64,000 nt of DNA from a phage: sequence record PZ386971.1; one strand, 5' to 3'. Numbering within the stretch: position 1 is the stretch's first letter; each line of letters begins with the position of its first letter. Positions 1 to 61,180 of the stretch are shown piece after piece. Both the position numbers and the translations under genes were made by a program. The notes under the pieces are model-generated. The model saw nothing but the letters and a program-made list of their open reading frames with translations, was not told the origin of the DNA and ran no database searches.

Positions 1-175
1 CATCACCGAAGTCCGTGCCCTGAACAAGACACTGTCTAAAGTGGTGTATGGTATCGTTGCTGGCCACGGCTGGTTCACCGACCTCGACCTGGAAGAGTCC
101 ACCATGGAAGTTGAAGTGGATGGCGTGAAGTACAAGGTCACTGCCGAACTGACAGAGAAAGAAATCAAAATCTAA
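1..175 (+). CDS. 3' end of an upstream gene (partial, product unknown)
   Basis: Open frame from window edge to TAA at 173-175; strong codon bias; followed by hairpin terminator. Confidence 0.5.
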   Translation, partial: ITEVRALNKTLSKVVYGIVAGHGWFTDLDLEESTMEVEVDGVKYKVTAELTEKEIKI

Positions 176-182
176 TCCAACG

Positions 183-205
183 GGCGGGGCAACCCGCCTT
201 TCTTT
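183..205 (+). terminator. rho-independent terminator (GGCGGG-gcaa-CCCGCC + T tract)
   Basis: GC stem-loop followed by TTTCTTT directly after stop codon. Confidence 0.6.
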
Positions 206-217
206 GGGAGAAGTAGC

Positions 218-541
218 ATGAGCAGTAAACCAACATATGTTGAAGTCATGCGTCATCTGGCTCAGTACGCCACTGACAATCTGAACTTGGATCTGTGGCG
301 TGACGATGACAAGCGCAAATTGCTGGACGACGTGGCATCTCAGAACGAGGACGCCCTAGACAAGCTGGCTGGCCTCCGCACCAAGAAAGACCTCGGCGGT
401 GATGAACTGGACGCTATCGAAATTGTAATGGACCTCGAAGAAGAGTTTCAGGTCGAAATCGACGATGGTTGGCTGGGCAGTAAAGGTGATGACCCGACCA
501 TGGGTGAACTCGCTGAACTCGTGGTTGCCCTGCGCAAATAA
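218..541 (+). CDS. acyl carrier protein-like protein with attachment Ser replaced by Glu (LGGDELDAIEIVMDLEEEF)
   Basis: Helix II region matches ACP signature [19 protein letters not shown] except S to E; ATG with GGGAGAAG RBS. Confidence 0.6.
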   Translation: MSSKPTYVEVMRHLAQYATDNLNLDLWRDDDKRKLLDDVASQNEDALDKLAGLRTKKDLGGDELDAIEIVMDLEEEFQVEIDDGWLGSKGDDPTMGELAELVVALRK

Positions 542-548
542 CAGAAGT

Positions 549-572
549 CCCCAACAAACGTTGGGGATTTTT
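549..572 (+). terminator. hairpin terminator (CCCCAAC-aaacg-TTGGGG + TTTTT), copy 1 of a duplicated cassette
   Basis: Perfect stem followed by T run; near-identical copy at 904-927. Confidence 0.6.
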
Positions 573-583
573 ACTTTTAGGGG

Positions 584-612
584 TTTACTTCTATAATGTA
601 AATGCGTATTAT
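584..612 (+). promoter_or_regulatory. early sigma70-type promoter TTTACT-N17-TATTAT
   Basis: Member of a 7-copy family with identical -35 TTTACT and 17-nt spacing. Confidence 0.5.
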
Positions 613-661
613 TGAATTCATAGAGCGGGGCGTTCCTGTTCATTGAAAGAAGGTATACATT

Positions 662-886
662 ATGTCTGCTATATCATGTGTTGTTGATCTCACCCCATTT
701 TGCCTGAACAATATTGCTAACCCTAAATTGGTCTTGTTTAAGGATCCCTCTAATTTCTGCTGGCTGGCAAGTTGTGATACCAACAACGGGCGTCGTGCTG
801 TTTGGGAGTTTCCCGCAACTGATGAAGGCAGAATTTCTGCTATAAGAAAATTAGAACTAGAAAATTCAAGCCGAGAAATTAAATAG
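662..886 (+). CDS. hypothetical early protein (74 aa)
   Basis: ATG ORF downstream of early promoter. Confidence 0.4.
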   Translation: MSAISCVVDLTPFCLNNIANPKLVLFKDPSNFCWLASCDTNNGRRAVWEFPATDEGRISAIRKLELENSSREIK

Positions 887-940: not shown

Positions 941-969
941 TTTACTTCCTTTAAGGAATGTCCTATTAT
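941..969 (+). promoter_or_regulatory. early promoter TTTACT-N17-TATTAT
   Basis: Same family as 584-612. Confidence 0.5.
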
Positions 970-1020: not shown

Positions 1021-1260
1021 ATGAAGAACAAAATGGTCGAAACTTCAGTAGAGATTGATCGCAATTGGGGATTGCTCCGCGCTAAAGGGTTCCGTCGTGT
1101 GTATGCGACCAAAGAAGTCTACGCACAGCGCCGTGACGTTATCATCAGCAAGAAAGGCAAAGAGTGGGTTGCTGAAGAAGTTGATGTCGAGACAGGCATC
1201 GTAGGAAAGGTAAAGGCCAAGGCCGTGATCCTCTTCGCTCTTCTGAAGCACATCAGTTAA
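1021..1260 (+). CDS. hypothetical early protein (79 aa)
   Basis: ATG ORF preceded by ATTATATCATG leader. Confidence 0.45.
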   Translation: MKNKMVETSVEIDRNWGLLRAKGFRRVYATKEVYAQRRDVIISKKGKEWVAEEVDVETGIVGKVKAKAVILFALLKHIS

Positions 1261-1319
1261 TTCTATAACTTTGGGCGGGGTATGATTACCCCGTCTATTT
1301 GAAATGCAGGAACTATACC

Positions 1320-1826
1320 ATGACCGATCAACAAATTCAAGATTTATTTTACCTCGTCCATGATAAGTCCCACATCATGCGCCCCGGTACTGTTTCCCCT
1401 GCCGTCCGTGATCTGGTGCAAGAATTGCGCGAACCACAGACGACCACACTTTATCGCGGGTTGCCTAAAGAGGACGTTGCGCGTTTAGAGATGATGTTTG
1501 AACGAGGCGACATGTTCCAGACATGGGATTCTTGCCTTAGCTTCAGTGAACTGAAGCATGTGGCCAAAAAATTTTCTAAATCGTACGGAACCCAAGCTGT
1601 TGCCCGCATTTGTTACAAACATCGAAACAGACTCCCGGAGGGGCTTAATGTCTATGGTTCTCTAGAAAAATTTGTGAACAAAGGCGATGAATCAGAAATG
1701 GATATGCTGGACTTGGCGTCCATGGAGAAAGAATGGATATTCTGCCAGCCTCGCGTCATACCAGTTTCAAGAAAAATGGCAACAGACGGCACGATGGTTT
1801 TTACCGTATCACTTGTTACCCTATAA
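1320..1826 (+). CDS. putative mono-ADP-ribosyltransferase-like early protein (R-S-ExE signature: LYRG ... SCLSFS ... MEKEW)
   Basis: Track ORF begins at TTG 1299; real ATG at 1320 after conserved leader AGGAACTATACCATG; motif order resembles ART toxins and T4 ModA/ModB. Confidence 0.35.
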   Translation: MTDQQIQDLFYLVHDKSHIMRPGTVSPAVRDLVQELREPQTTTLYRGLPKEDVARLEMMFERGDMFQTWDSCLSFSELKHVAKKFSKSYGTQAVARICYKHRNRLPEGLNVYGSLEKFVNKGDESEMDMLDLASMEKEWIFCQPRVIPVSRKMATDGTMVFTVSLVTL

Positions 1827-1878
1827 ACCCACGGCGGGGTATGATTACCCCGTCTATTTGAAACCAAGAGACTATATC

Positions 1879-2256
1879 ATGAAAAAGTTAATCCTCGCTG
1901 TTGCCCTGCTGGGCGCTTCCTTTGCTGCTGTTTCCGCCCCTCCTGTCATCACCGGAGTGTCTACCAACGGTGTTTATGCTTTCAAGGCGTATGGCCAAGA
2001 CCTCGTTCTGTATAAGAACGGGAAGATGATTGAGCGCTGCGTATCAGACGACGTGAATCGTGGGATCGACAATCAGGGTAGCCCATACGTCCTGGACATC
2101 TATTCCTGCTCCAACGGGACGAAGTCCTTTGGCGTCAAGACCTTTGGCAACGTCGCCGACGGTGGCTGGGGCTTCATGTTCGAAACCCGCAACCACCACC
2201 CGGTCAAGACCATGCAAGAAGAGTTCTTGATCTCTGTCGGGGGTGGAACATTATGA
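1879..2256 (+). CDS. secreted/periplasmic small protein with signal peptide (MKKLILAVALLGASFAAVSA)
   Basis: Internal ATG after conserved leader; classical n-h-c signal peptide. Confidence 0.55.
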   Translation: MKKLILAVALLGASFAAVSAPPVITGVSTNGVYAFKAYGQDLVLYKNGKMIERCVSDDVNRGIDNQGSPYVLDIYSCSNGTKSFGVKTFGNVADGGWGFMFETRNHHPVKTMQEEFLISVGGGTL

Positions 2257-3261: not shown

Positions 3262-3948
3262 ATGAAACGTTTAATCCTCGGGGTCGTGCTGTCTGGTCTG
3301 GCATTACCCGCCGCTGCTAAGCTGAACTCCACAGGTGATAAACTGTGGTCCGACCTTTCCTATTGTGCTGGGTTCTCCCAGGCGGTTGCCATCGACAAGT
3401 CTGGTTCCATAGAGAACTTCGCTGAACTCTGGAACACAGGCAACGTCTCCACTGCTGTCGTCAATGCCGGAATTGAGTTCAACCGTTACAAACAGGGAGC
3501 CTATAACCTCAAGGGCTACCTCAATGACGACGAATTTAACCGTGGAGGCATGGAGGCTGGCGATTTGATCATGACTGGGCGTATGGGCACCCAAGGCCGA
3601 ATGACCGTAAGACAGTGCCGTTCGCTCCCTTCTCCGGCATTACAGAAGGGTGTGCAGGTTGGTCGCCGCCACCTGAACCTCATCAACGATGGCAACCAGT
3701 GCGTCAAAGTATTCGAATACAGCGCTACGCAGACCTCTGATCGCGTCCTGAAGAAGGAATGGCGCACCCGCGCTCTTGGTCTCAGAGCCTGGCTGGTTGA
3801 GAACGATTATTACTTTGAAGACAGGGTTCAGAACGGTCTGAAAGACCTGGCCACGAATCTGAGCGTGAACCTTGATGATCCTCGCATGTCGCGCGAACTC
3901 CAGCAGACTCGTGTTGACTGCGACAATATGATGAAGGAGAACGAGTGA
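3262..3948 (+). CDS. secreted protein with signal peptide (MKRLILGVVLSGLALPAAAK)
   Basis: Track ORF starts at TTG 3097; ATG 3262 has RBS AGGAGAA; signal peptide. Confidence 0.55.
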   Translation: MKRLILGVVLSGLALPAAAKLNSTGDKLWSDLSYCAGFSQAVAIDKSGSIENFAELWNTGNVSTAVVNAGIEFNRYKQGAYNLKGYLNDDEFNRGGMEAGDLIMTGRMGTQGRMTVRQCRSLPSPALQKGVQVGRRHLNLINDGNQCVKVFEYSATQTSDRVLKKEWRTRALGLRAWLVENDYYFEDRVQNGLKDLATNLSVNLDDPRMSRELQQTRVDCDNMMKENE

Positions 3949-51556: not shown

Positions 51557-52165
51557 ATGTCACTGAAAAACTTACTGAAACGCATCTTCACCACTGTTGA
51601 AGCTAACGTCACCGCAGGTCTGGATAAACTGACCGACACCGAAAAGCGCCTGAACCTGGCTGCTCGCAAGCTGTCTGACGAAATCCGTCGCCTGGAGGAA
51701 GCCCGTGTCACCAACGTCCGCAACGGCGTCAAGCTGAAGAAGACCGCAGAACAGAACCTAAGTGAAGCCGCCAAGCGCGAAGAAGTTCTGAAGGACGCCA
51801 TCGCTCGTGGTGTCACACCAACCCGCGCCGACGCCCTGATTATTCTGCATCGCCGCCGTATCGGTGAAGCCCTGTTGGCTCAGGTGAAGGACATCGAAGC
51901 AAGCAGCGACAAACTGAACGGTGCGATCATCCAGCTGGGTGACAAACTGGACGAAGTCAAGTCCAATCTCGAGCTGGTTCGTGTTCAGAAAGAGACGAAC
52001 GACCTGGGTCTGGTGCTCCCTGAAGATATCGATTATGCCGCTGGTATGACCACCATCGATATCGATGCCATCCTGCGCGAAACCGAAATCGCTGATTCGA
52101 GCTACTCCGCCAACAGCCCGTCGTCTATCGAAGCCGACAACTACCTCGCCAGCCTGAGCAAATAA
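51557..52165 (+). CDS. PspA/IM30 (phage shock protein A)-like coiled-coil protein
   Basis: N-terminus LKRIFTTVEANVTAGLDKLTD parallels PspA [21 protein letters not shown]; coiled-coil composition. Confidence 0.45.
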   Translation: MSLKNLLKRIFTTVEANVTAGLDKLTDTEKRLNLAARKLSDEIRRLEEARVTNVRNGVKLKKTAEQNLSEAAKREEVLKDAIARGVTPTRADALIILHRRRIGEALLAQVKDIEASSDKLNGAIIQLGDKLDEVKSNLELVRVQKETNDLGLVLPEDIDYAAGMTTIDIDAILRETEIADSSYSANSPSSIEADNYLASLSK

Positions 52166-52845: not shown

Positions 52846-54276
52846 ATGATCCCTATCCTTGAAACAGTCCGCCGACTTCGCGAAACCAAAGGCAGCAATG
52901 CGAAGAAAGCCGTGCTGACCGAAGCATTCAAGAACAACCCAGACTTGGCAGACTTCCTGCAGTATGTCTATGACCCAATGACGTCGTTCTATCGGACTGA
53001 GTTGAAGCTCAGCGCGTACCCTCGCATGCTCGTCCGTGAGAAGACTGATGACATTAGCGAAGTCTATGGCGTCCTCGACCAGATGGCGCAGCGCCTTGTC
53101 GGTGGCCAAAAGGCTGATGCCCTGTTGGCCTCTGTCGCCCTGAAGATGGATCCCCAATACCACGAACTCATTCAGATGATCCTAGACCGTGATATCAAGG
53201 CGGGTATCGCTGAGAAGGGCATCAATGCAGCGTTCAAAGCAGCGGGTGGCACAGGCCGACTGATCAACATCCTTCCGTATCATCGTTATGACAACATGAC
53301 GATTGACCTGCTGAAGAAGATGGACTTCAAGCGTGGTGTCTACAGCCAGCTGAAGTCAGACGGTATGTTCGCCAACATCATATGTCGGTACAATAAAGAG
53401 CCTGAGATTCGCTCTCGATCCGGTTCCCTTATCGCAGGCGGTTCGGTTGACAACCTGTCACTGGTGTTCAAGGACATCATCTACGATGCGGGGATTGGTG
53501 AGAGTGTGTTCCATGGTGAACTTCTCGTTGTTGACCTCAAGTCGAATACCATCCTGCCTCGTGCTGTCGGTAACGGTAAACTCAACAGCGTGATTCAGAC
53601 AGGAGAACCCCTAGAAGATCGTTATCGGGTGATCTACCGGGTGTGGGATGTTATCCCGTACGACAACTGGTTCAACGCCCAGCGCGTGGACACCCCGTAT
53701 GAAACCCGCTTCGACATGATCATGCAAATGTTTTGTGAAGACGACGGTCTGGTTCAGGTTCAAGAAACCCGTGTTGTTCACTCATTTGCCGAAGCCGTCG
53801 ACCACTTCAAAGACGCGCTGGCTCGCAAAGAAGAAGGCACGATATGTAAGGCCGCAGACATGCCGTGGGAAGATGGTACTTCTTCTGAAGGTCTGAAGCT
53901 GAAGATGGAGGTTGAGTGTGACCTTGAAATCGTGGGCTTCAACGAGGCTGACAAGAAGGGTAAACACGCCAAGACTTTTGGCTCACTGATTTGTAAAACT
54001 TCCGATGGCCTGCTTGTTGTTGGCGTATCAGGGATCTCAGATGAGCTGAGACGCCATATGTGGGAGAACCAGGGCGATTACATTGGCAAGATCGCCGCAG
54101 TGCTCTCCAATGGCGTACAGGACAAGACAGACGATGCGATGAAGTCTTTGTTCCTACCTCGCCTTGTAGAAGTCCGCATTGACAAGAAAGTGGCCAACAC
54201 ACTGGATGAAGTCTATGCGATACAGAAAGCGTACATCGAAAACATCGCATTCCTGTTGGAGAAGGGTAATGGGTGA
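52846..54276 (+). CDS. ATP-dependent DNA ligase, T4 gp30-like
   Basis: N-terminus and KxDG adenylation motif (QLKSDG) colinear with recalled T4 ligase. Confidence 0.85.
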   Translation: MIPILETVRRLRETKGSNAKKAVLTEAFKNNPDLADFLQYVYDPMTSFYRTELKLSAYPRMLVREKTDDISEVYGVLDQMAQRLVGGQKADALLASVALKMDPQYHELIQMILDRDIKAGIAEKGINAAFKAAGGTGRLINILPYHRYDNMTIDLLKKMDFKRGVYSQLKSDGMFANIICRYNKEPEIRSRSGSLIAGGSVDNLSLVFKDIIYDAGIGESVFHGELLVVDLKSNTILPRAVGNGKLNSVIQTGEPLEDRYRVIYRVWDVIPYDNWFNAQRVDTPYETRFDMIMQMFCEDDGLVQVQETRVVHSFAEAVDHFKDALARKEEGTICKAADMPWEDGTSSEGLKLKMEVECDLEIVGFNEADKKGKHAKTFGSLICKTSDGLLVVGVSGISDELRRHMWENQGDYIGKIAAVLSNGVQDKTDDAMKSLFLPRLVEVRIDKKVANTLDEVYAIQKAYIENIAFLLEKGNG

Positions 54277-60565: not shown

Positions 60566-61180
60566 ATGAGCAACTATCTTCAGGGGAAGTACACCCCGGT
60601 TAATCCCAAGAAGTATCAGGGGAATGTGAATAACATCATCTTCCGCTCTTCGCTGGAGTTGGTGGCTTTCAAGTTCTGTGATATGAACTCCGCGATAGTG
60701 AAGTGGTCTAGTGAGGAGACCGTAATCCCTTACATTTCCCCAGTCGACGGGCGCACCCATCGTTACTTCATGGACCTCAAGGTCTGGACGCGCCGTGAAG
60801 GGCAAGAGGAACTACAGGTCACCCTCATTGAGATCAAGCCCAAAGACCAGATCAAGCAGCCGAAGAAGACTCCGAACATGAAGGAGTCGACATTCAACAA
60901 TGCGATGCGAACCTGGTTGGTCAATTCTGCCAAGTGGGAGGCCACCCGCGAACTGTGTGCCAAGAAGAACTGGAAGTTCATTATCTGGACCGAAGAGCAT
61001 CTTGTTCCAGGTGAAGATCCGGATGTTCGTAAACAGTTTGAGCTGAAGTCGAAAAAGAAACGGGATATGGAGATGCAAGATCGCCGACATGCCGAACGTG
61101 TCAGGGTGCTGAAGGAACAGATGCGGAAGGAGATTAAACCCGCCCCAACGGAGCGGGATGATGGACTTCTATTACCTTAA
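60566..61180 (+). CDS. late protein with PD-(D/E)xK-like motif; possible head-completion nuclease (gp4-like)
   Basis: Motif DLKVW ... LIEIKPKD; late promoter; divergent from baseplate operon. Confidence 0.3.
   Translation: MSNYLQGKYTPVNPKKYQGNVNNIIFRSSLELVAFKFCDMNSAIVKWSSEETVIPYISPVDGRTHRYFMDLKVWTRREGQEELQVTLIEIKPKDQIKQPKKTPNMKESTFNNAMRTWLVNSAKWEATRELCAKKNWKFIIWTEEHLVPGEDPDVRKQFELKSKKKRDMEMQDRRHAERVRVLKEQMRKEIKPAPTERDDGLLLP

What the first reader, a model, noticed from the sequence alone, without database searches (positions are those of the whole stretch)
1320..1826. Small early protein with an R-S-ExE ADP-ribosyltransferase-like signature
The 168-aa protein shows, in the canonical order, an aromatic-Arg motif (TTTLYRG), a Ser-rich beta-strand motif (WDSCLSFS) and a hydrophobic-flanked E-x-E (MEKEWIF). 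Spacing is similar to mono-ADP-ribosyltransferase toxins and to small phage ARTs such as T4 ModA/ModB. It sits in the immediate-early region behind the conserved leader, where a host-modifying enzyme would be expected.
Basis: inference. Interest (0 to 1): 0.65.

Follow-up and report, generated by a model that had tools for sequence, protein, structure and literature searches.

The report
Small phage ModA/ModB-like ADP-ribosyltransferase cassette
The 168-residue protein is a genuine ADP-ribosyltransferase of the phage T4 ModA/ModB family, carried on a small swappable gene cassette in an Ackermannviridae phage; databases already name its near-identical relatives this way, so it is a correct but ordinary finding whose host target is still untested.

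Summary

The window is an Agtrevirus-like Ackermannviridae phage. Orthologues at 94-97% identity (CBA120 orf140, Det7 gp48, MK-13) are already annotated this way in RefSeq, so the identification is not new. No experiment on them was found, and the target cannot be read from sequence: RNA polymerase alpha, the translation apparatus or something else.

New minor points: the gene is a 559-bp cassette bracketed by a perfect 31-bp hairpin repeat. Relatives carry denV or nothing in the same slot. The subfamily has a conserved N-terminal HDKxH motif that T4 ModA/ModB lack.

The parts
1320..1826 (+). CDS of the 168-aa Mod-family R-S-ExE mono-ADP-ribosyltransferase (stop included). Key codons: R46 1455-1457, S74 1539-1541, N110 1647-1649, E136 1725-1727, E138 1731-1733; HDKSH motif 1359-1373.
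1274..1304 (+). Left copy of a perfect 31-bp direct repeat, GGCGGGGTATGATTACCCCGTC (hairpin) + TATTTGAAA. With the following RBS and ATGA (to 1323) it forms the conserved leader in front of the ART gene.
   Evidence: (family D2); RNA fold -18.8 kcal/mol, z -3.9
1833..1863 (+). Right copy of the same 31-bp repeat, which is the leader of the next gene (1879-2256). Start-to-start spacing is 559 bp, so the ART ORF plus one repeat copy forms a discrete cassette.
   Evidence: A221 and SKML-39 have one copy and no ART.
941..969 (+). Nearest upstream sigma-70-type promoter-like site, TTTACT-N17-TATTAT. It is part of a terminator-plus-promoter module (901-974) that is duplicated at 548-617.
   Evidence: (family D1)
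1021..1260 (+). 79-aa ORF (phrog_804, function unknown) between the promoter and the ART leader. It is probably the first gene of the same transcript.
   Evidence: conserved in relatives with and without the ART

Best explanation
The ORF encodes a compact, single-domain, arginine-specific mono-ADP-ribosyltransferase of the phage 'Mod' family, the R-S-E clade that holds T4 ModA and ModB. It is probably transcribed by host RNA polymerase early in infection from the T4-early-like promoter at 941-969, reading through the 79-aa ORF and the hairpin leader. The enzyme would bind NAD+ with R46 and the S74-F-S76 strand. It would use E138 as the catalytic glutamate, with E136 (the ExE pattern typical of arginine-modifying enzymes) steering transfer of ADP-ribose onto arginine side chains of host proteins, as part of host takeover.

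Shown here: the gene is real and under purifying selection, it is homologous to ModA/ModB, it has the ART fold, the catalytic residues are conserved, and it is a dispensable cassette. Inferred: enzymatic activity, arginine specificity, early timing and a host-protein target.

The target cannot be read from sequence. My split is: a ModB-like set of translation or RNA-binding proteins (possibly also with NAD-capped RNA as donor) about 0.4; RNA polymerase alpha as for ModA about 0.3; another host protein, including defence proteins, about 0.3.
For: PHROG 832 'RNA polymerase ADP-ribosylase' matches at E 5.8e-15 over residues 2-159, and 43 of 46 family members hit the same PHROG.

hhalign and BLASTP place R46 on ModB R73 and EKEW on EQEW. 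R73 is the residue whose mutation inactivates ModB (PMC10468400).

The family profile aligns YRG and S-F-S with the YRG and S-T-S of the solved toxins Vis (6.5e-7) and ExoT (1.3e-4).

dN/dS is 0.13 against CBA120 and 0.09 against phage bering.

For timing, a promoter-like site lies upstream, and the gene sits at the head of a same-strand block that runs into replication genes.
Against: No biochemical or expression data exist for this protein or any Ackermannviridae orthologue in the searchable literature.

Direct Pfam, NCBIfam and PDB sequence searches with the single protein find nothing significant, so the assignment rests on profiles and predicted structure.

Identity to ModA/ModB is only about 23-25%, too low to transfer target specificity.

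The gene is absent from most Ackermannviridae: about 67 Ackermannviridae records (78 in all, less 11 Erwinia jumbo phages) carry it, against 276 that match the region. It is therefore not essential for takeover.

The hairpin in front of the gene could attenuate transcription, so 'early' may be delayed-early or weak.
Confidence: 0.8

Rival explanations
1. The enzyme is a counter-defence ADP-ribosyltransferase. Its main job would be to switch off a host immunity or toxin protein, as T4 Alt does to MazF or AcrIF11 does to the Csy complex, rather than to reprogramme transcription or translation.
For: It is an accessory, patchily distributed cassette: about 67 Ackermannviridae records carry it against 276 that match the region. 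It occupies a slot that is swapped with denV or left empty, which is the pattern expected of host-specific accessory or anti-defence genes. Alt is reported to modify MazF R84 (review PMC8120803).
Against: There is no similarity to known anti-defence families. PADLOC gives no hit. AcrIF11 belongs to the other ART clade, with a diphtheria-toxin-like fold. The closest characterised homologues, ModA and ModB, act on RNA polymerase and the ribosome.
Confidence: 0.12
2. The protein is an NAD+ glycohydrolase or a catalytically dead ART-fold protein that works by binding rather than by transferring ADP-ribose.
For: Many R-S-E proteins show NADase side activity. The subfamily carries an extra conserved HDKxH motif of unknown role.
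Against: The complete R / S-x-S / E-x-E set is conserved across a family with a mean column identity of 24%, and dN/dS is about 0.1. A dead enzyme would not be expected to keep exactly the catalytic residues.
Confidence: 0.06
3. The motif match is coincidental and the ORF is not an ART, or not a gene at all.
For: The nearest genome record (vB_EcoM-ZQ1) does not annotate the ORF. Direct Pfam gives only a sub-threshold RavZ_cat hit.
Against: All profile, fold, conservation and selection evidence listed above contradicts this.
Confidence: 0.02

Closest known systems
Phage T4 ModB (207 aa; ADP-ribosylates and RNAylates ribosomal protein S1, L2, EF-Tu and others)
   Same: It is the best characterised homologue: family HMM 1.8e-23 over ModB residues 26-196. 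It is likewise a stand-alone single-domain R-S-ExE enzyme. LYRG is identical, E-x-E-W is shared, and the (G/A)FN(Y/V) strand is shared. R46 corresponds to the catalytic R73.
   Different: Identity is only about 23%. The window protein is 39 residues shorter overall and about 26-27 residues shorter at the N-terminus. It carries the HDKSH motif where ModB has MEAKKNE. It sits in a different phage family (Ackermannviridae rather than Straboviridae). Its targets and any use of NAD-capped RNA are untested.
Phage T4 ModA (200 aa; ADP-ribosylates Arg265 of both RNA polymerase alpha subunits)
   Same: It is homologous (family HMM 8e-15; BLASTP 2e-4 and hhalign 3.5e-5 over the R-to-S region). It has the same R / S / N / ExE layout. 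The RefSeq product name of the orthologues is taken from this protein.
   Different: The match is weaker than to ModB. ModA has E-Q-E-V rather than E-x-E-W and lacks HDKxH. The review-listed ModA 'S109' aligns with K87 here. The serine that aligns with the STS of solved toxins is ModA S96/S98, which corresponds to S74/S76 here. Nothing here shows that RNA polymerase is the target.
Phage T4 Alt (682 aa, packaged in the capsid and injected)
   Same: It belongs to the same R-S-E clade and the same PHROG 832, and is also an arginine-specific mono-ART acting on host proteins.
   Different: The family HMM does not detect it even at E < 10. Alt has a long N-terminal region and is delivered from the virion. 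This protein is a bare catalytic domain encoded among non-structural genes.
Bacterial R-S-E toxins and effectors (C3 exoenzymes, Vis, Certhrax, VIP2/iota, ExoS/ExoT, HopU1, Tre1)
   Different: Identity is 6-17%. The protein has no secretion, translocation or immunity partner, and no neighbouring gene matches a hydrolase or immunity family. It is phage-encoded and presumably acts inside the infected cell.
PeSL (promoter-early stem-loop) cassettes of T4-like phages (PMC2839356, PMC4122927)
   Same: Short repeated regulatory stem-loop modules bracket variable small genes and mark the indel or swap points between close relatives.
   Different: Here they occur in Ackermannviridae. The repeat around the ART is a hairpin plus RBS leader with no recognisable promoter. 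Only the neighbouring 74-aa ORF cassette is bracketed by a full terminator-plus-promoter module.

Membership tests
R-S-E (cholera-toxin-like, ARTC) mono-ADP-ribosyltransferase superfamily | ART fold (split beta-sheet NAD-binding core) | tested here: met
R-S-E (cholera-toxin-like, ARTC) mono-ADP-ribosyltransferase superfamily | Aromatic-Arg on the first core strand | tested here: met
   Y45-R46-G47 lies in strand 44-47. R46 is at least 90% conserved and G47 is invariant in 51 sequences. It aligns to ModB R73 and to the YRG of Vis.
R-S-E (cholera-toxin-like, ARTC) mono-ADP-ribosyltransferase superfamily | Ser-x-Ser (STS) motif at the end of a beta-strand followed by a helix | tested here: met
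   S74-F-S76 lies in strand 72-76, followed by helix 79-89. S74 is at least 90% conserved. The profile aligns it to the STS of Vis and ExoT.
R-S-E (cholera-toxin-like, ARTC) mono-ADP-ribosyltransferase superfamily | Catalytic Glu in a (Q/E)-x-E motif | tested here: met
   In E136-K-E138, E138 is invariant and E136 is at least 90% conserved. It aligns with ModB E171-Q-E173 and ModA E163-Q-E165.
R-S-E (cholera-toxin-like, ARTC) mono-ADP-ribosyltransferase superfamily | NAD+-dependent ADP-ribosyl transfer | not testable with these tools
   This needs an enzyme assay.
Phage Mod family (T4 ModA/ModB; PHROG 832) | Significant full-length sequence homology to ModA/ModB | tested here: met
   PHROG 832 matches at 5.8e-15. 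A T4-free family HMM hits ModB at 1.8e-23 and ModA at 8e-15. The remote member P0011 links the Ackermannviridae proteins to annotated modA/modB genes of T4-like phages by tblastn.
Phage Mod family (T4 ModA/ModB; PHROG 832) | Stand-alone catalytic domain of about 160-210 aa, not virion-associated | tested here: met
   The protein is 168 aa and the predicted secondary structure shows a single domain spanning residues 3-166. Most relatives are 160-215 aa. Absence from the virion is not tested.
Phage Mod family (T4 ModA/ModB; PHROG 832) | Expression in the pre-replicative (early) period | tested here: inconclusive
   A sigma-70-type promoter-like site lies at 941-969 upstream on the same strand, but promoter-like sites are not enriched over shuffles. 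The gene sits in a same-strand block leading into replication genes. No transcript data were found.
Phage Mod family (T4 ModA/ModB; PHROG 832) | Defined target (RNA polymerase alpha R265 for ModA; S1, L2, EF-Tu and RNAylation for ModB) | not testable with these tools
   Identity of 23-25% does not allow the target to be transferred.
T4 Alt / VIP2 family | Sequence homology to the Alt catalytic domain plus a long N-terminal capsid-targeting region | tested here: not met
   The family HMM does not detect Alt at E < 10, and the protein has no N-terminal extension. It is not filed here.
PeSL-type mobile regulatory cassette | Variable gene bracketed by direct repeats of a regulatory stem-loop, with close relatives showing a single repeat and no gene | tested here: met
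   A perfect 31-bp repeat lies at 1274-1304 and 1833-1863. A221 and SKML-39 have one copy joined to both outer flanks. The same leader precedes denV in phiDP23.1 and Se-J.
PeSL-type mobile regulatory cassette | The repeat contains an early promoter next to the stem-loop | tested here: not met
   No promoter-like site was called in the 31-bp repeat around the ART. Only the neighbouring module (548-617 and 905-974) has stem-loop plus promoter.

The most novel reading that the evidence does not exclude
The HDKxH-bearing proteins form a separate, uncharacterised branch of the Mod family. It is found in Ackermannviridae, in Erwinia jumbo phages and in many metagenomic phages. Its extra conserved N-terminal His/Lys motif would give it a substrate or donor specificity different from both ModA and ModB, for example a nucleic-acid target or preferential use of NAD-capped RNA. 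That would make it a new host-takeover chemistry delivered on a mobile cassette.
Probability: 0.15. Interest if true: 0.55.

Novelty: already known. Interest (0 to 1): 0.22.

Why it matters
The result confirms that a tool-free reading of three short motifs correctly picked out a real enzyme. Biologically, it extends ModA/ModB-type host modification from T4-like phages to the Ackermannviridae, a family widely used for Salmonella and E. coli biocontrol. No such enzyme from this family has been characterised in the literature searched. ART-plus, denV-plus and empty variants exist naturally at the same locus, so the contribution of the enzyme to infection could be tested directly with near-isogenic phages. 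The practical gain is small: the annotation already exists, and the open question (which host arginine is modified) needs wet-lab work.

Tried and rejected
- Direct Pfam scan of the protein gave only a sub-threshold RavZ_cat hit (E 0.041, 13.6 bits against a cut-off of 27). I rejected it as noise.
- Direct and close-homologue profile searches of PDB sequences gave nothing significant. Only the 46-sequence profile reached Vis and ExoT.
- NCBIfam and PADLOC gave no hits.
- Pfam PF26816, precomputed for two homologues, is not in the local Pfam copy, and no paper mentions it. Its name stays unknown.
- Alt membership is rejected, because the HMM does not detect Alt.
- The TTG start at 1299 is rejected (see the observation check).
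- I looked for a neighbouring immunity protein, ADP-ribosylhydrolase or macro-domain partner. The nine flanking ORFs match only unknown-function PHROGs plus an acyl carrier protein.
- I looked for NAD-salvage genes (NAMPT, RPPK, reported as variable in Agtrevirus) among ten larger ORFs of the window and found none.
- No second ART paralogue was found among 247 other stop-free translated segments of the window.
- Literature searches for any study of this gene in Ackermannviridae found nothing.
- The dN/dS comparison with vB_CECAV_050 was discarded, because that gene has a one-codon deletion that put the ungapped comparison out of register.
I re-ran it without them.

Full report
**1. What is in the sequence**

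On the + strand an ORF runs from ATG 1320 to TAA 1824-1826 and encodes 168 aa. The three quoted strings are present:
- TTTLYRG is residues 41-47.
- WDSCLSFS is residues 69-76.
- MEKEWIF is residues 135-141.

An in-frame TTG at 1299 would add 7 residues. I reject it because every close homologue starts MTDQ/MKED at the ATG, AGGA lies 9 nt upstream of the ATG, and the TTG lies at the 3' end of the repeated leader element.

A loose composite regex for aromatic-RG, S-x-[ST] and E-x-E-hydrophobic at these spacings hits one of 127 stop-free segments of at least 120 aa in the whole window. That one is this ORF. Shuffled sequences give 0.02 hits.

**2. Where the window comes from**

The first 6 kb match Ackermannviridae phages. 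The best match is Escherichia phage vB_EcoM-ZQ1 (Aglimvirinae) at 96.8% over 100% of the query, followed by Agtrevirus and Kuttervirus genomes. The ORF lies just after late structural genes and an acyl carrier protein gene. It is on the same strand as, and at the head of, a long block of small unknown ORFs. That block leads into a DNA helicase, RNase H, the late sigma factor, SbcCD, primase and ribonucleotide reductase.

**3. Homology**

Searches with the single protein alone find nothing significant:
- Pfam gives only a sub-threshold RavZ_cat hit.
- PDB sequences give nothing.
- NCBIfam and PADLOC give nothing.

The phage-specific library does recognise it. PHROG 832, 'RNA polymerase ADP-ribosylase', matches at E 5.8e-15 over residues 2-159.

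The word-indexed protein search returns nine close relatives at 56-93% identity. In their alignment R46, S74, E136 and E138 are invariant.

An exhaustive profile search of 1.84 billion representatives finds 58 clusters at E < 1e-3. Most are 160-215 aa, and a few are fused to other domains, for example a topoisomerase IB. Of 46 aligned members, 43 hit PHROG 832, and a few reach Pfam ADPrib_exo_Tox or DRAT.

- T4 ModB scores 1.8e-23 (residues 26-196).
- T4 ModA scores 8e-15.
- T4 Alt is not detected.
- None of the other 247 stop-free translated segments of the window is detected.

Direct comparisons agree but are weaker. hhalign of the close-homologue profile gives 1.2e-4 against ModB and 3.5e-5 against ModA. 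BLASTP gives 23% and 25% identity. A remote member (P0011) links the Ackermannviridae genes by tblastn to annotated modA/modB genes of T4-like Enterobacter, Citrobacter, Salmonella and Serratia phages.

**4. Catalytic residues**

Both the hhalign and HMM alignments place R46 on ModB R73 and E136-K-E138-W on ModB E171-Q-E173-W. Mutating R73 inactivates both ADP-ribosylation and RNAylation by ModB (PMC10468400).

The 46-sequence profile reaches solved toxins by sequence: Vis at 6.5e-7 and ExoT at 1.3e-4. It aligns YRG with their YRG, and S-F-S-E with their S-T-S.

Across 51 relatives with a mean column identity of 24%, G47 and E138 are invariant. L9, H14, K16, L44, R46, S74, E77, A82, F85, E136 and W139 are at least 90% conserved. 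N110, in strand 107-110, lines up with ModA N128 between F127 and F129. A review lists F127 and F129 among the important ModA residues (PMC8120803).

One discrepancy needs noting. That review gives ModA 'S109' as the family serine, but S109 aligns with K87 here. The serine that matches the STS of solved structures is ModA S96/S98, which corresponds to S74/S76 here.

An E-x-E motif, rather than Q-x-E, is characteristic of arginine-specific enzymes (stated for MTX and other arginine-modifying ARTs in PMC8120803). So arginine is the inferred acceptor.

**5. Fold**

AlphaFold2 with the 10-sequence alignment gives pLDDT 82.7 and pTM 0.75. With 51 sequences it gives pLDDT 94.6 and pTM 0.88, with the same secondary-structure elements in the same order and all five models between 92 and 95.

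- In Foldseek against the PDB, the 50 best hits are all R-S-E ADP-ribosyltransferases: HopU1 at 8.3e-8, then C3 exoenzymes, Tre1, ExoS/ExoT, Vis, Certhrax, and the iota and CDT toxins.
- In the viral library, after the phage bering orthologue, the best named hits are ModA, ModB and 'ADP-ribosylase' proteins of T4-like phages, with TM about 0.7.

The interpretation survives.

**6. Is it a working gene?**

dN/dS is 0.13 against the CBA120 orthologue (dS 0.17) and 0.09 against phage bering (dS 1.24). This shows strong purifying selection.

**7. Expression context**

The nearest upstream promoter-like site on the same strand is TTTACT-N17-TATTAT at 941-969. It sits immediately after a strong terminator hairpin with a T-run (901-926; -16.3 kcal/mol). 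From memory, the GTTTAC-type -35 element resembles the T4 early-promoter consensus. This is a lead, not a test.

The promoter is followed by a 79-aa ORF (1021-1260, phrog_804), then a stable hairpin (1274-1296; -18.8 kcal/mol, z -3.9), an RBS and the ART gene. The terminator scan does not call the hairpin as a terminator because its tail is only UCUAUUUG. It may attenuate or stabilise the transcript.

Early expression is therefore a reasonable inference, not a demonstrated fact. I found no transcriptome of an Ackermannviridae infection.

**8. The gene is a cassette**

The 31-bp sequence GGCGGGGTATGATTACCCCGTCTATTTGAAA occurs exactly twice in the 64-kb window, at 1274-1304 and 1833-1863, with none expected by chance. 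The repeat extends to 50 nt at 88% identity, through the RBS and start codon.

Close relatives show what happens at this slot:
- A221 and SKML-39 lack the ART. They have a single copy of the repeat, joined on the left to the window's upstream flank and on the right to its downstream flank.
- Dickeya phage phiDP23.1 and Kuttervirus Se-J have the same hairpin leader, followed in the same slot by denV (endonuclease V).

By tblastn, 78 phage records carry the ART. That is about 67 Ackermannviridae plus 11 Erwinia jumbo phages at about 28-30% identity. By comparison, 276 records match the surrounding 6 kb. The Klebsiella, Dickeya and Serratia members lack the gene.

Immediately upstream, the 74-aa ORF at 662-886 is bracketed in the same way by a duplicated terminator-plus-promoter module (548-617 and 905-974). 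A221 and CBA120 have one module and no ORF. This is the pattern described as PeSL-mediated modular shuffling in T4-like phages (PMC2839356, PMC4122927).

**9. What it most likely does**

By homology and by conservation of the full catalytic set, it is an active arginine-specific mono-ADP-ribosyltransferase. It would be made inside the infected cell and would modify host proteins.

The characterised homologues act as follows, according to the review PMC8120803 and PMC10468400:
- ModA modifies Arg265 of both RNA polymerase alpha subunits and reduces its activity.
- ModB modifies S1, EF-Tu and other translation proteins, and can attach NAD-capped RNAs to S1 and L2.

The window protein scores better against ModB and shares its E-x-E-W. 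At about 23% identity, however, the target cannot be transferred. The RefSeq product name 'RNA polymerase ADP-ribosylase' is a family label, not evidence.

No immunity or hydrolase partner is recognisable among the neighbours. The accessory, swappable nature of the gene leaves room for a host-specific counter-defence role, as reported for Alt acting on MazF.

**10. Novelty**

Orthologues are already named 'RNA polymerase ADP-ribosylase' in RefSeq and in Pharokka-type annotations: 94-97% identical proteins in Shigella phage MK-13, CBA120 orf140, Det7 gp48 and PhaxI, a slightly shorter one in vB_CECAV_050, and a 57% identical one in phage barely. A survey of viral NAD/ADP-ribose systems lists the 'Mod family of the RSE clade' among the commonest phage ARTs (PMC9503650).

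The identification is therefore already known, even though the nearest genome record leaves the ORF unannotated and no experimental work on it was found.

The modest new observations are the hairpin-bounded ART/denV/empty slot and the subfamily-wide N-terminal L-x-HDK-x-H motif. That motif is present in 55 of 66 retrieved proteins and is as conserved as the catalytic residues. It is absent from T4 ModA and ModB, and its role is unknown.

Noticed in passing
window 1274-1323 and 1833-1882; L005 1384-1473; L006 1388-1477; L009 540-1110; L010 1740-2300: The slot behind the conserved hairpin-plus-RBS leader is polymorphic among Ackermannviridae. It holds the ART here and in many Kuttervirus, denV (endonuclease V) in Dickeya phage phiDP23.1 and Kuttervirus Se-J, and nothing in A221 and SKML-39. 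The repeat marks the exact swap points.
   Followed up: yes
window 548-617, 662-886, 905-974: A second cassette lies just upstream. A 74-aa ORF (phrog_22629, function unknown) is bracketed by a duplicated terminator-plus-promoter module (TCCCCAACAAACGTTGGGGA, a T-run, then GGGGTTTACT-N17-TATTAT). A221 and CBA120 have one module and no ORF. This resembles PeSL-type shuffling, which has so far been described for T4-like phages.
   Followed up: partly
window 1359-1373 (residues H14-D-K-S-H18): An N-terminal L-x-HDK-x-H motif is as conserved across the subfamily as the catalytic residues. H14 and K16 are kept in at least 90% of 51 sequences, and HDK is present in 55 of 66 retrieved proteins. T4 ModA (CITNK) and ModB (MEAKKNE) lack it. 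It sits at the end of helix 1, with pLDDT about 91 in the deeper model. Its role is unknown.
   Followed up: partly
T4 ModA residues 96-109 versus window residues 74-87: The review table gives ModA 'S109' as the R-S-E serine. In every alignment made here, S109 falls on the non-conserved K87. The serine that aligns with the STS of the solved toxins Vis and ExoT is ModA S96/S98, which corresponds to S74/S76. The literature assignment may be off.
   Followed up: partly
L004 2941-3560 (MW650886.1, vB_EcoM-ZQ1): The closest genome record leaves the 99.4%-identical ART ORF unannotated, with a 618-bp gap between called genes.
   Followed up: yes
L003 9560-9838 (CBA120 orf138): In CBA120 the gene after the ART also starts MTDQ. 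The repeated leader extends through the start codon and the first codons, although the rest of the protein is unrelated to the ART.
   Followed up: no
window 1-883 of query 1000-2300 (that is, 1000-1882): Kuttervirus genomes match the stretch from the 79-aa ORF through the ART to the hairpin at about 93% nucleotide identity, and the match stops at the right-hand repeat. This is consistent with exchange of the cassette between the two subfamilies.
   Followed up: no
window 51557-52162, 60566-61177, 52846-54273: The phage ORFs include a PspA/IM30-family domain (4.9e-11), a TnsA-like endonuclease N-terminal domain (1.1e-17) and an ATP-dependent DNA ligase (1.3e-14). The first two are unusual-looking for a lytic phage replication region.
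   Followed up: no
P0013 (763 aa, metagenomic relative): One relative fuses the HDK-type ART domain (residues 10-146) to a bacterial-type topoisomerase IB catalytic core (Pfam 8e-21).
   Followed up: no
window 1879-2256 and 3262-3948: Two downstream ORFs begin with near-identical signal-peptide-like N-termini (MKKLILAVALLG / MKRLILGVVLSG; DNA repeat D5). Both belong to unknown-function PHROGs.
   Followed up: no
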